Shown: piece by piece, positions 9,975 to 27,271 of the stretch
Numbering within the stretch: the first letter of the stretch is position 1
Layout: each line of letters begins with the position of its first letter
NCBI RefSeq assembly: GCF_009914755.1
Contig: NC_060938.1
DNA from: the human T2T-CHM13v2.0 reference genome, Homo sapiens
Length of the DNA: 64,000 nucleotides
Direction: 5' to 3' (one strand)
Position numbers and translations under genes: made by a program
Notes under the pieces: model-generated
Told to the model about the DNA's origin: nothing
The model's database searches: none
What the model saw: the letters and a program-made list of their open reading frames with translations, nothing else

Positions 9975-10183
9975 TGACAATGACCACTCAGTTTTTATTC
10001 AAGATCAATTTTATTTGTTGTAAAAACAAACATGGGTTATGTTCCAGACAAACAGATATAAGTGAGTAGACTTATGCCTTTGTGCCTCCTTGACTCTTCA
10101 CAGGTTGCAAAAACAAATCCTGCCAGCAGGAGGTGGCAGGTTGCTGAGGTGGCTGGTTGCTCTTTGAGCCATCTTGGCCTTGT
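9975..10183 (-). other. Candidate terminal exon of a minus-strand spliced transcript
   Basis: Acceptor ...gcatgccag|ACAAGG at 10184/10183; TAA at 10074-10072; two AATAAA signals at 10015-10010 and 9999-9994. Confidence 0.6.
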
Positions 10184-10335
10184 CTGGCATGCACAGTCCC
10201 TGGCACTGCAAAATATTCAGGGAGTAAGAGTGTTGCACAAAGGATTTTACCAACCTCGTCACATTAAGCAGCGTTCAAGGATTTGCTGACCACCACTTAA
10301 ACAAATTTTGTGTTATGCTATAGCAATGAACTTAC

Positions 10336-10417
10336 TTGTTCTATTTCTAAACACAACATTGGGTTCACACACAGGCCTGGACAAAGCTTCCCACTTCTGA
10401 ACTATTTACTGATCTTC
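10336..10417 (-). other. Candidate 82-nt cassette exon
   Basis: Acceptor catcttgcattctttgagaacag|GAAG; consensus donor CAA|gtaagt. Confidence 0.45.
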
Positions 10418-11821
10418 CTGTTCTCAAAGAATGCAAGATGAATGATGTGCAATACCATGGCTATGGCATGTGACTTTTCTAGACCTGGATGGTTAGTGTC
10501 CCAATATTTAACTGATTTTTTGGGGGGTGAAAATATGCCAACAGTTCTTCCTTCTATCATCCCCATCACTACCATACATGTAATGACATAATCATGTCAA
10601 AGTGTGTCCTCAGAATCACTATTCCTAGCTGAGTATACTAAGGCTTTCTATCTAGGTCAGTTCATTGTGTCTGTGTCTCCTCTAAACCCTCCTTCATCAT
10701 GCCTACCTTGAGGAATTCAGCAAGTGATCATTCACACAAGCTAAAGGATTTTAGCTTTCTCTGCCATAAAGATTATTGCTAAAATACACACCATACAACA
10801 AACCAACCCATTTCCCACAAATCTTACTGTCTGACTTCTCACAAAATACATAATGACTTTTATTGTGTCTCTTCCTTCTGTGTTTCTCTTTCCTAACTGA
10901 ACTTTGTTCTTTATCCATGCCTTCTTCCAATCCTGACATATTTTAAAACCTTTAGCATTTCTGCCTATAATATTTGGGTTTTCTCCTTTTCCTATCTTTA
11001 TTTAATAAGTCCCATACAAATATTTTCCCCGTAATCACAATGTTTTCTTTTCACTTTGCCCAAGAACTGAGTTATGAGTTCCAAATTTGGATAAACTCTA
11101 CATTGGCTAAGTTTTAGTCATTTGCACTGCTAAGAAAGATGGCAATTCAACATGCTGAAGATGACTTCCTCCCTTATAAAGGGGCTAACACAGAGGGCAA
11201 TACTGTTCATGCCTCTGAGTCTTGATCACAAGAATTGCTTTAGGCAATTACAATCATGTCTCCTCTGACACATCATATTATTCAAGTGAGACAGAGAAAG
11301 AATATGTCCTATGTCACACAGCTGGGTGGTGACAGCTGCTTTAGCATCAGCACACTGCGTTCCCTCTGATTTCTTCATTCATCTCTAAGTAGCAGTAAAT
11401 CCGGTCCTGAATACTGACTTTGACACTCAGCTTTCTCCACATCCTTCCTGTCACTGCCTTTGAGACTACTTCAGATTCTTCCCTTAGCTTCTATTTCTCC
11501 ATTTGTAAAATGGGTTGATGAGGGTATCTTCATCAGTAGCTGTGACAATAAAAATGGGATCATCATGCATCCTCCTTAGCCCCATGAGTAAGCTCCCAGT
11601 AAGTGAGGTTGTCATCATTACTGGATATTTAAGATTATCTACCTATTTGAAAAACCCTAGTGACAGCGTCTCAGTTGCTTTTCTTTTTGCGTGAATGATC
11701 ACTTGCTGAATTCATCAAGCAGGCGCTTTAACATTTACCTTCCTTTATTATGCTGGAGCATTTTTCATGTAGGAAGCTTCTGTGGCTTCTCACTATGACT
11801 GCTTTGTTTGTTCAAAACTTA

Positions 11822-23742: not shown

Positions 23743-24769
23743 CTAGGACAATGTTCATCTCACCACATAAAAATTCACAATTCATGGCACATTAGTTCAA
23801 TAAAATATTATGCTTTCTATGAATGATAATTATAAAAACTTGCTATAAATGGGAGCGAGTTTAACATTAAATCACATGAAACAGACATATTAACAAAAAT
23901 AGATACATTAGAGCAATTGAATTATAAATGCTTTTTTCCTTCAAAAATTTTCCTTCATGTTATTTTCACATTCTTTTAGCAGCAAATGACAATGAACTGC
24001 CATTGATTTTATTTTATTTTTTGAACTTAAGTAGTGTATCCACAAGTACACCATTGCCCTGTCCAATCTTTAGGGGAGATATTCTATTATCTAAAACTCG
24101 GTAAATTGACCTATCATGTTGTTGGTGATATCTTATTTAGGTAAAAATATTAGGTATTTAGAACAATGCATTTCTGAATATTTTGACTGATATTATTATA
24201 GATGGATTTAGAATCTGCCCTTTAGGGGTCCAGAAGGAGGTAATGTTTGGATATCATTAGGCTAGAATATTTTATTGTCCTACAAAAATGTTGATAAATT
24301 GCTTATAAGGGCTTATGTATTAGTAATGACCATGTCACCAAAATAATAAACCCAAATATGATAAGAATCACAATCAGAAAATATATTTTTTCTTCTTTTA
24401 TTTACAACCAACCAAACAAAATAACATAGCTATAATTTTGTCAATCTCAGAACAATAAATTTAAGTAAAATAGAACATAAAGAATTTTTATCACAGATGA
24501 ATCAGATGGAAACTATCCAGAAAACACCCAAATATGTGTATTCCTCAGTTAATACTCAGTCTAGGTGCCAAAGGGAAACCACACGCTTCCATTTATCTAT
24601 ATGATTTGGCAACTTTAATTTGTAAGGGGTCCAACAGGTGTTTAATTTCATAGGCTGATATAGTCAATATCACTAGGTCCATATTTTTTAGATTTCAATA
24701 ACTATATAATTCTGATTTCTCTTTGTTAGACTGTACTGATCTGATCATGGAGGAATAATCTAATATGCC

Positions 24770-25750
24770 TTAGATTATGTTGGAACTCCCCAGAACTTTC
24801 CTCAGGGCTGCCTTTATCTCCTTATTCTGGAGGCTATAGATAAGGGGATTGAAGAGTGGGGTCACCATAGCATAGAACAAAGTTTCAATTTTCTGCATCC
24901 CTGTAGAATGTCCGAGTCCTGGGCTCACATACATGACCATAAGAGGGCTATAGCACAGTGATACCACAGCCAAATGAGACCCACAGGTAGAGAAGGCCTT
25001 ATGTCTCCCAGTGCTTGAAGGCATACCCAACACAGCTTTCAGGACAAGAGTATAGGATCCAATAATAAAGAGGAAGTTACCAAAAATAACTAATGAGCTT
25101 AGAGTGTAGCAAAACAGTTGGATTCTTGGGGCAGAAACACAATCCAATGCAAATAGTGGCCCTGGGTCACACACAACATGGTCAATAATGTTTGGGCCAC
25201 AGAAGGGCTTCTGAGAGATGAGAACAATGGGGATCAGGAACCACAGAAATCCACAAACCCAGCACAGTATGACCAGTTTGGCATAGAGATGCCCAGTCAT
25301 GATATTAGGATAGAGCAAGGGACGGCAGATAGCAAGGTACTGATCAAAGGCCATCACAGTCAAAAGCAAGCATTCTGATGTACCCAAAGAGAAGAAGAAA
25401 TAAAACTGGAGAAAACATCCAGCAAAGGAGATGTTTTTTTTCTCTGAAAGGAAGTTGACCAACATCTTGGGAACTGTAGAAGAGACATACCATATCTCTA
25501 AAAAGGAGAAATTTCCCAGGAACATGTACATGGGAGTGTGAAGTCGCCGGTCACACCACAGGACAAAAGCAATGGCTCCATTCCCTGTTATAGTCAGTGC
25601 ATATGTTGTAGTAAAGAGTGAGAAGAGGAAGATCTGAATTGTCCACTCACAAGAGAAACCTTGGAGTATAAATTCATTTACAAAAGCAAAGCTGGAATTT
25701 GGCTCAGAGACATTCATTAGGCCAGTGACATGCAAGGTCAAGGGACACAT
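24770..25750 (-). CDS. OR11H2: Olfactory receptor family 11 subfamily H (OR11H2), 326 aa (315 aa from Met12 at 25717)
   Basis: LHTPMYMFLGNFS, MAFDQYLAICRPL, KAFSTCGSHL, PLFNPLIYS; the N-terminus MCPLTLHVTG matches recalled OR11H2 rather than OR11H1/OR11H12 (LQVTG). Confidence 0.88.
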   Translation of the reverse strand: MCPLTLHVTGLMNVSEPNSSFAFVNEFILQGFSCEWTIQIFLFSLFTTTYALTITGNGAIAFVLWCDRRLHTPMYMFLGNFSFLEIWYVSSTVPKMLVNFLSEKKNISFAGCFLQFYFFFSLGTSECLLLTVMAFDQYLAICRPLLYPNIMTGHLYAKLVILCWVCGFLWFLIPIVLISQKPFCGPNIIDHVVCDPGPLFALDCVSAPRIQLFCYTLSSLVIFGNFLFIIGSYTLVLKAVLGMPSSTGRHKAFSTCGSHLAVVSLCYSPLMVMYVSPGLGHSTGMQKIETLFYAMVTPLFNPLIYSLQNKEIKAALRKVLGSSNII

Positions 25751-27235
25751 TATCAGTCAGGACTCTTTTATAAAATGTGTTCCTTTTTTAAGAATGAAGA
25801 GAAGATAATGAACATGAAGTCATTTTTCAAAAGAATAATTAGGAAGAGAATGTAGTTTACTTTTTCTCGGCTATACAGTATATGAGTTTTGGGCTTCGTA
25901 GGTAGCTGATTGAACAAAAACAAACTTCTGCCATCTTCTAAATCTCTCCTTAATATGCAATCGTGATAGAACTAGGTAAAGTTAAATTCCTTTTGTAAGG
26001 TCATTATTTTGAGACAGAAATGATTGAATATAGTTTCTGGATAGCATACAACTCAAAGTTAGTACTTTGAGAAGGCACAAATGTGTTAGTTTCTTACTGC
26101 AAACCCAACTTATGGTGCAATAGACTCAGTAAAGAAAGTTTTGACCATTTACATTTCAGCTAAACATATTACTTAACATTATTTACATATGCAAAAGAAA
26201 TGCACATATTTTAAAATAAATTGGTAGCAATCACGTTAAAGCCATTATCTCTGAATTTCTATTGCTGCTGTTGTTAGCTTAAGTGATTATCTAATGTTAC
26301 TCACCAATATTGATTTTTAATATTAATATTGTAAAGCTGCAATGTTTTCTGTAGAAAGCAAAGGCTTTAAGCTTCTGATTAATCTTTTACTTTAATTTCA
26401 TAAACTGATATAGTGATTATTATATTGATAAAATCAATATAATATTGATTTAGTCATTATGTACAAAAGTTTGCAAAGATCTAGACATTAAACTTTACTT
26501 TTGAAGGTATTTCATAAAATTTTGAGATTGATTTTCCTTATATGCTTTTTTTAAAATTGAAAATTTTTACCAGATGACAGAAATCAAACACTTATTTTGT
26601 TATAGGTAAACTTCCTTCTTCCTACATTCTTATAAAAATATATTAGGGATTTGAGTTACCTGGAAAAAACTTTTCTTTTCCTCAGAAATATGGAGGGATG
26701 TGAGTCCTAGATATCAAGAGGACATTTTGAGCAGAAACACAAATTTTCAAAAGTTTTTCTTCCAACTTGCTCTCTACACCAGTGCTCTGGGAAGTCTTTT
26801 CGTATGACTAGTTAGAAGTTATGTTTGTGCTTCTTTTAGTAATATATGTCTCTTTAATAGGCTTCCAACCAGAATCATTAATAAACCAACATTAAGAAAT
26901 TATGGAATGAAAAGGGATTGACACAGGAGTGTCATGATTCTCAGCAGTGCTCAAAAGGTGAAGCCATCATCGTTTTGACAGGAACCAAATCTCTAAATGA
27001 TTTATTTTATAAATCATATTATGTCTTCAGCTAGACAGAGTTTTATTGTGGCCCCAAAATTAAAAATGCACTTTATGAAACTCACATTCTCCTGGGATGT
27101 AGCCTCTATAGCATTAGGAAAGTTATCTTCCAAGATGAATCTTTAAAAAGTTAATGATTACATATTCTCTGAAGAATCAGTAAAGAGTAATGACAACTAT
27201 TCTAAGGCATCATTATTTACAAAGAGCTTGCCCAC

Positions 27236-27271
27236 CAGACGGATTCCAGAAAATCTTCTGGAAGACACAGT
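27236..27271 (-). other. Candidate OR11H2 5'UTR exon
   Basis: Strong acceptor ttttgtatcttatttctcctcag|; modest donor CTG|gtgggc. Confidence 0.35.

What the first reader, a model, noticed from the sequence alone, without database searches (positions are those of the whole stretch)
9975..27271. Possible chimeric minus-strand gene: OR11H2-region exon spliced to an orphan FAR2 exon and a novel terminal exon, with a phase-compatible ~107-aa ORF
Seen: three exon candidates on the OR11H2 strand join in frame. ATG at 23644 to the donor at 23608 gives MTSHRICTAAFW+G (phase 1). The FAR2-like exon 12484-12310 needs phase 1 in and leaves phase 2. Exon 10183-10072 continues RQGQDGSKSNQPPQQPATSCWQDLFLQPVKSQGGTKA-stop, followed about 60-80 nt later by two AATAAA. 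Inference: a segmental-duplication mosaic may have assembled a new transcript or microprotein from an OR locus, one FAR2 exon and non-coding DNA. The FAR2-to-terminal-exon join is better supported than the first exon, whose phase match has a 1-in-3 chance probability and whose acceptor is weak.
Basis: partly seen in the sequence, partly recalled or inferred. Interest (0 to 1): 0.8.

Follow-up and report, generated by a model that had tools for sequence, protein, structure and literature searches.

The report
Stray FAR2 pseudogene exon, chance ORF
The proposed three-exon gene is built around a real but decaying leftover exon of the FAR2 gene inside a patchwork of duplicated DNA near the chromosome 14 centromere, and the reading frame that joins it to two other candidate exons looks like chance rather than a working gene.

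Summary
The arithmetic holds. The three minus-strand pieces (23644-23608, 12484-12310, 10183-10072) join into a 107-codon frame with AG/GT borders.

Only the middle piece has independent support. It is a single FAR2 exon with about 5 kb of flanking intron, copied from chr12 at 88% identity. The "terminal exon" lies in DNA copied from chr8. Its acceptor and first ~18 codons sit in a ~60-nt insert that is one arm of a repeat found more than 200 times. The "first exon" belongs to a separate OR11H duplication module.

The candidate splice signals are no better than chance:
- 11 equally good ATG-to-GTRAG phase-1 first exons lie upstream.
- 52 of 658 downstream AGs keep 36 or more codons open.
- The chosen acceptor has an average pyrimidine tract.

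The frame shows no sign of selection. It is identical in three ~99.5% copies (window, chr14:13.1 Mb, chr22), which is uninformative. It is broken in 3 of 4 older chr2 copies by two separate events. Coding divergence is not below flank divergence.

Verdict: an ordinary unprocessed pseudogene fragment in a segmental-duplication mosaic. Transcription could not be tested here.

The parts
12310..12484 (-). Single FAR2-derived exon (175 nt, phase 1 in, phase 2 out). It keeps a strong acceptor (long pyrimidine tract + CAG) and donor (CAG|GTGAGA).
   Evidence: Identity to the chr12 FAR2 exon is 146 of 172 aligned nt, plus a 3-nt in-frame indel. There is no Pfam hit, because the exon lies between the NAD_binding_4 and Sterile domains.
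10744..16015 (-). FAR2-derived block (exon plus flanking intron), copied from chr12:29186061-29191119 at about 88% identity. An Alu-like insert at 15489-15833 interrupts it.
   Evidence: (blastn of the window against chr12 stretches), plus the hub's repeat mask.
7324..10698 (.). Block derived from chr8:14712150-14715452 (83-85% identity). It holds the candidate terminal exon and both AATAAA motifs, which are already present in the chr8 sequence.
10129..10197 (.). Insert of about 58-69 nt that is absent from the chr8 source. It equals one 56-nt arm of an inverted-repeat element with more than 200 copies. It supplies the acceptor AG (10185-10184) and the first ~18 codons of the candidate terminal exon.
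   Evidence: 218 matches; 91-96% identity to copies on chr9 and chr2; alignment to chr8 and to the chr9 inverted pair.
10072..10183 (-). Candidate terminal exon (36 codons + TAA). Its acceptor is weak and it has no independent support.
   Evidence: No Pfam hit.
9994..10015 (-). Two AATAAA motifs, 57 and 73 nt after the stop.
   Evidence: The background rate is 1.67 per kb.
23608..23742 (-). Candidate first exon in the OR11H duplication module.
27236..27271 (-). AG and GT are present; nothing else was tested.
16016..20869 (.). Rearranged L1 at the boundary between the FAR2P-type module and the OR11H module. Its ORF1 and endonuclease parts are on the + strand and a reverse-transcriptase piece is on the - strand.
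24770..25717 (-). OR11H2 coding exon, which is annotated.
   Evidence: Hub annotation; (7tm_4, E = 5e-52).

Best explanation
The locus holds a non-functional, single-exon relic of FAR2, an unprocessed pseudogene fragment of the FAR2P type. It is carried in a pericentromeric segmental-duplication mosaic.

Shown by the calls:
- A chr8-derived block with a small repeat insert sits next to a 5-kb chr12 FAR2 piece.
- That composite is shared with four chr2 loci.
- In the chr14/chr22 lineage it abuts a rearranged L1, beyond which lies the OR11H module.
- The whole 30 kb then exists in three copies that differ by about 0.5%.

The order in which these pieces came together is inferred from their identities.

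The FAR2 exon is open because it was a coding exon. Its inherited splice sites are still intact. The 107-codon frame arises because one of many ATG/donor pairs upstream and one of many AGs downstream happen to fit its phases.

Nothing indicates selection for a protein. Whether the exon is occasionally spliced into non-coding RNA is not shown either way.
For: Origin and borders of the modules:
- map the blocks.
- The Sterile-domain exons of FAR2 occur only on chr12.
- NAD_binding_4 matches on chr2, chr14 and chr22 cover profile positions 157-212 only, and none lies in the window.
- Only one FAR exon lies in window 3300-24700.

Decay of the exon:
- The exon is 84.9% identical to FAR2, against about 88% for its flanks.
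- With FAR1 as outgroup, 11 of 20 amino-acid differences arose on the duplicate's lineage and 1 on FAR2's. 7 are ambiguous and 1 is a gap.
- dN/dS against FAR2 is 0.68, and against the chr2 copies 0.49-0.89. None differs significantly from neutral.
- 3 of 4 chr2 copies carry a frameshift or a stop.

Chance controls:
- Searches give the counts of alternative first exons and acceptors.
- There is no CpG island between 3 and 30 kb; the highest observed/expected ratio is 0.52.
- The hub's RefSeq T2T table has no gene between 3233 and 24770.
Against: - The frame is intact and identical in all three young copies and in 1 of 4 chr2 copies.
- Identity among the young copies is expected by chance, however. 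About 1.5-1.7 differences are expected in 324 nt, giving P(0) of 0.19-0.22.
- dN/dS point estimates are below 1 (0.49-0.89), so weak constraint cannot be excluded with 14-17 substitutions.
- The FAR2 exon's splice sites are strong, and the donor core of the first exon (GTAAG) is good.
- The chr2 relatives (FAR2P1) are named as expressed lncRNA/pseudogenes in 22 papers. I saw only the search listing, so some transcription of this kind of locus is plausible.
- No RNA, Ribo-seq or peptide data could be examined.
Confidence: 0.85

Rival explanations
1. A chimeric RNA is real but non-coding. The FAR2 exon has intact, strong splice sites and is exonised into low-level transcripts (lncRNA or transcribed pseudogene), as reported by name for the chr2 FAR2P loci. 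Its partner exons need not be the ones the reader chose.
For: - The exon has a strong acceptor and donor.
- FAR2P1 appears as an expressed lncRNA/pseudogene in 22 papers (listing and abstracts only).
- The same composite of FAR2 exon plus chr8-derived block is kept at four chr2 loci.
Against: - The RefSeq T2T table supplied by the hub has no transcript between 3233 and 24770.
- There is no CpG island or other promoter mark in the region.
- Ten stronger-looking acceptors lie further downstream.
- I saw no paper linking OR11H2, OR11H1 or OR11H12 with FAR2.
Confidence: 0.25
2. A young chimeric protein-coding gene: a 107-aa microprotein is translated from the three-exon transcript and is maintained in the three recent copies.
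For: - The frame is intact in 3 of 3 young copies and 1 of 4 older ones.
- AATAAA motifs follow the stop.
Against: - Two independent disabling events occur among the four chr2 copies.
- Coding divergence is at or above the flank rate.
- The FAR-conserved residues are lost on this lineage.
- There is no domain match for either the FAR2 piece or the tail.
- The ATG is third in its exon, behind a uORF.
- The phase matches are expected by chance.
- The first exon is absent from the chr2 loci, so any such gene would be younger than the module junction.
Confidence: 0.02

Closest known systems
FAR2P1-FAR2P4, the FAR2 unprocessed pseudogenes at 2q21. The names come from the literature listings. Equating them with the four chr2 places found here is my inference.
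   Same: The same FAR2 exon and flanking intron, and the same adjoining chr8-derived block with the repeat insert. Identity is about 95% over window ~3893-16015.
   Different: The chr2 loci keep at least one more FAR2 exon about 12 kb upstream (NAD_binding_4 positions 157-210, with 2 TAG stops). In the window the FAR2 homology stops at 16015 against an L1 and the OR11H module, which leaves a single exon.
FAR2, the functional parent on chr12 (fatty acyl-CoA reductase 2)
   Same: Exon borders, phase and reading frame are inherited. Nucleotide identity is 84.9%.
   Different: - There are no other FAR2 exons in the window.
- There are 20 amino-acid differences over 57 residues, 11 of them demonstrably on the duplicate's lineage.
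- The exon has a 3-nt indel relative to FAR2.
- It cannot encode a reductase, because the NAD_binding_4 and Sterile domains are absent.
Chimeric genes born in primate segmental duplications, for example the POTE-actin fusions of the chr2 POTE genes (PMC7073761, passages read)
   Same: Both sit in a mosaic of duplicated modules in pericentromeric DNA. The copy pattern also matches: chr2 x4, chr14 x2 and chr22 x1, the same as POTE groups III and IV in that paper.
   Different: The POTE-actin fusions have transcripts and proteins, and the paper reports signs of purifying selection. Here there is no transcript evidence and no constraint. That paper does not mention FAR2 or OR11H (0 occurrences). 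I did not test physical linkage of this block to the POTE genes.

Membership tests
FAR2 unprocessed pseudogene fragment (FAR2P type) | Nucleotide homology to FAR2 that covers both exon and intron, so it is not a processed copy | tested here: met
   Window 10744-16015 aligns to chr12:29186061-29191119 at about 88%, with a continuous exon-plus-intron match.
FAR2 unprocessed pseudogene fragment (FAR2P type) | Unable to encode the parent protein (missing exons or disabling changes) | tested here: met
   Only one FAR exon is present in the window. The Sterile exons occur only on chr12. No NAD_binding_4 match lies in the window.
FAR2 unprocessed pseudogene fragment (FAR2P type) | Evolution without FAR-type constraint | tested here: met
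   11 of 20 replacements are on the duplicate's lineage against 1 on FAR2's. The exon is more diverged than its flanks. 3 of 4 chr2 copies are disrupted.
Fatty acyl-CoA reductase (functional enzyme) | NAD_binding_4 (PF07993) plus Sterile (PF03015) domains | tested here: not met
   The exon peptide has no Pfam hit at E <= 10 apart from a chance AGOG match at 0.23. Genome-wide family scans place no such exon in the window.
Protein-coding chimeric or de novo gene (microprotein) | Purifying selection or ORF retention across paralogues | tested here: not met
   Searches show two disabling events in four older copies, no deficit of coding changes, and dN/dS not significantly below 1.
Protein-coding chimeric or de novo gene (microprotein) | Splice and start signals better than the background | tested here: not met
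   Only the FAR2 exon's own sites are strong. The first-exon and terminal-exon choices are matched by many alternatives, and upstream ATGs are present.
Protein-coding chimeric or de novo gene (microprotein) | Spliced transcript across the proposed junctions, and evidence of translation | not testable with these tools
   No RNA-seq, cDNA, Ribo-seq or MS data are available here. Literature searches found no description.

The most novel reading that the evidence does not exclude
The three ~99.5%-identical copies (window, chr14:13.1 Mb, chr22:16.1 Mb) carry a very young chimeric gene, possibly specific to humans or great apes. In it an inherited FAR2 exon is spliced to an exon whose acceptor and first codons were donated by a repeat insert. 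It would be expressed in a restricted tissue such as testis or tumours and translated into a ~95-107-aa protein too young to show constraint.
Probability: 0.03. Interest if true: 0.5.

Novelty: new member of a known kind. Interest (0 to 1): 0.1.

Why it matters
The finding matters little in itself. It documents a single-exon FAR2 pseudogene fragment that has no row in the supplied RefSeq table, and it gives its exact mosaic origin:
- a chr8 block;
- a repeat insert;
- a chr12 FAR2 block;
- an L1;
- the OR11H module.

It is also a cautionary example. A relic coding exon with intact splice sites will almost always find phase-compatible partners nearby, so an in-frame join is not evidence for a gene. 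If the chimeric transcript were real and translated, it would be a clean case of gene birth by duplication shuffling. The paralogue comparison argues against that.

Tried and rejected
- Pfam and PDB sequence searches of the FAR2-exon peptide found nothing useful. The exon lies between the two FAR domains, so I established identity by genome-wide DNA and family searches instead.
- Pfam on the 36-aa tail of the terminal piece gave no family.
I mapped FAR exons by tblastx between the FAR1 and FAR2 stretches already held.
- The literature gave nothing on the proposed chimera:
  - FAR2P1 is named in 22 papers as an expression marker (listing and abstracts only).
  - No paper links an OR11H gene name with FAR2P; the listed hits all have 0 FAR2P occurrences.
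  - FAR2P2 and FAR2P4 appear in only one listed paper, a differential-expression list.
  - No paper holds FAR2 + pericentromeric + segmental duplication + pseudogene together.
  - PMC8269103 (one table passage) lists ARHGAP42P4 directly next to OR11H2, with no gene name between them.
- I considered an L1 antisense-promoter origin for a minus-strand transcript. I dropped it untested, because the +-strand L1 segment seems to start too close to ORF1 to hold most of the 5' UTR. That is inferred.
- I could not name the repeat family of the 56-nt arm, because no repeat library is available here.
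Full report
**Observation**

On the minus strand the three pieces 23644-23608 (37 nt), 12484-12310 (175 nt) and 10183-10072 (112 nt including TAA) join into a 107-codon open frame. Each border carries AG or GT. AATAAA motifs lie 57 and 73 nt beyond the stop. The description is accurate.

**What the middle exon is**

A DNA search of the window's own assembly finds the 401-nt stretch around it at eight places:
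- itself;
- chr14:13.118 Mb and chr22:16.115 Mb, at 99%;
- four places on chr2 (130.46, 130.85, 131.14 and 131.74 Mb), at 95-96%;
- chr12:29189258-29189651, at 88%.

The chr12 place is FAR2. The only chr12 matches to the Sterile domain (PF03015) lie 5 and 16 kb downstream of it. NAD_binding_4 exons lie upstream of it. tblastx between the FAR1 and FAR2 loci marks chr12:29189336-29189548 as a conserved coding exon.

The exon peptide has no Pfam or PDB match, because it lies between the two domains. In the stated frame it aligns with FAR2 and FAR1.

In window 3300-24700 it is the only match to FAR coding sequence. The other tblastx hits, at 6.1-6.3 kb and 19.8-20.9 kb, lie at or beside the L1-like stretches. 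"Orphan FAR2 exon" is therefore correct.

**The mosaic**

| Window coordinates | Origin |
|---|---|
| 10744-15494 and 15843-16015 | chr12:29186061-29191119, ~88% identity, split by an Alu-like insert |
| 7324-10128 and 10198-10698 | chr8:14712150-14715452, 83-85% identity |
| 10129-10197 | insert absent from chr8 |
| 16016-20869 | rearranged L1: ORF1 and endonuclease on +, reverse-transcriptase piece on - |
| beyond ~20.9 kb | OR11H module |

- Window ~3893-16015 as a whole is shared with the four chr2 loci, with substitution divergence of 4.0-4.2%.
- All three candidate exons therefore coexist in only three places: the window, chr14:13.10-13.13 Mb and chr22:16.10-16.13 Mb. These are colinear over 30 kb with 0.47-0.52% substitutions.

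**The terminal exon**

It is not FAR2 intron; it lies in the chr8-derived block. Its acceptor AG (10185-10184) and about the first 18 codons sit in the ~58-69-nt insert that chr8 lacks.

That insert is one 56-nt arm of an element found at 218 matched places, in both orientations, many of them in arrays. The places include chr1, 2, 4, 9, 13, 14, 18, 20, 21 and 22. An isolated 337-bp inverted pair sits at chr9:109324607-109324943. Both AATAAA motifs are already present in the chr8 source.

**Are the joins more than chance?**

First exon:
- In the 17.5 kb upstream, 467 ATG-to-GT combinations are open and leave phase 1. 59 of them have a donor at least as consensus-like and are 30 nt or longer.
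- 11 have a GTRAG core, out of 37 GTRAG sites in the stretch. One of these starts at the OR11H2 start codon.
It follows an 8-codon uORF (ATG at 23667) and an ATG at 23663 that stays open to the donor in the wrong phase.

Terminal exon:
- In the 9 kb downstream, 52 of 658 AGs (7.9%) keep 36 or more codons open in the required phase.
- Ten acceptors look much stronger, and four of them also leave 36 or more codons open.
- AATAAA occurs 1.67 times per kb.
- The three frames of the terminal piece run about 48, 36 and 27 codons before a stop.

Only the FAR2 exon's own inherited sites stand out.

**Selection**

- The three young copies are identical over the 324 coding nt. Only 1.5-1.7 differences are expected, giving P(0) of 0.19-0.22, so this says nothing.
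- Among the chr2 copies, one has a 1-nt deletion in the FAR2 exon, two share a TGA in the terminal piece, and one is intact. That is two independent disabling events.
- Coding differences against the chr2 copies are 15-17 of 287 nt (5.2-5.9%). This is not below the flank rate (Fisher p = 0.28).
- Nei-Gojobori ratios are 0.49-0.89 on 14-17 substitutions. None is significantly below neutral (P = 0.16-0.51).
- Against FAR2 the exon is 146 of 172 nt identical (84.9%), slightly lower than the ~88% of its intronic flanks, a difference that is not significant (p = 0.23). dN/dS is 0.68.
- With FAR1 as outgroup, 11 of the 20 amino-acid differences arose on the duplicate's lineage, 1 on FAR2's, 7 are ambiguous and 1 is a gap.

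**Other context**

- No CpG island lies between 3 and 30 kb; the highest observed/expected ratio is 0.52.
- The hub's RefSeq table has no gene between 3233 and 24770.
- Literature:
  - FAR2P1 is named in 22 papers, mostly as an expression marker (listing and abstracts only).
  - No listed paper pairs an OR11H gene name with FAR2P, and no structural description of the FAR2P loci turned up.
  - A CNV table in PMC8269103 lists ARHGAP42P4 next to OR11H2 with no gene name between them (one passage).
- The copy pattern (chr2 x4, chr14 x2, chr22 x1) mirrors POTE groups III and IV in PMC7073761. That paper dates those duplications to within about 2 My, and it does not mention FAR2 or OR11H (passages only). 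I did not test linkage of this block to the POTE genes.

**Conclusion**

The best reading is a single-exon FAR2 pseudogene relic in a duplication mosaic, with a coincidental open frame (confidence 0.85). The exon may well be exonised into some non-coding RNA (about 0.25). A selected microprotein is unlikely (about 0.02). RNA and translation data, which are not available here, would be decisive.

Noticed in passing
window 10141-10196; also L046 (chr9:109324607-109324943) and L047 (chr2:131097001-131106500): A 56-nt sequence recurs at 218 matched places in both orientations, at 88-96% identity. It forms roughly 7-9-kb arrays on chr2 (four arrays), chr14 (two) and chr22. On chr2 each array lies about 30-40 kb from a FAR2P-type locus. 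It also occurs as isolated ~340-bp inverted pairs on chr9. I could not name the repeat family.
   Followed up: partly
outside the window, about -24346..-16766 (chr14:13863654-13871234; L048): A second FAR2-derived fragment lies on the same strand (84-90% identity to chr12:29178357-29181995). It overlaps the pseudogene LOC100420171. It holds the FAR2 exons that precede the window's exon in the parent gene, yet here it lies downstream of that exon, so the order is rearranged. The same exon recurs at chr14:13151921, chr22:16149590 and two chr2 places.
   Followed up: partly
L045 (chr11:13806778-13806990 and chr11:13807281-13807458): The FAR1 locus has a second, weaker copy of the homologous exon about 470 nt downstream of the first (40% against 58% identity to the FAR2 peptide). 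It looks like a duplicated or alternative exon.
   Followed up: no
window 4679-4688: Compared with the window, both chr2 loci that I fetched carry roughly 9.9 kb of extra sequence at this point.
   Followed up: no
window 16016-20869: The L1 between the FAR2P-type module and the OR11H module is internally inverted. The 17475-19993 part lies on + and the adjoining L1 part, 17474-16073, lies on -. The element is cut off at 16016, exactly where the FAR2/chr2 homology ends. The module junction may therefore lie within it.
   Followed up: partly
window 25717-25750 (-): The OR11H2 frame stays open to an upstream ATG at 25750, giving 326 aa against the annotated start at 25717. A GTGAGT donor inside the coding exon at 25650 would also be phase-compatible with the FAR2 exon.
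   Followed up: no
Using it would shift the frame to one that stays open for all 48 codons examined (sequence, frame). I did not score it.
   Followed up: no
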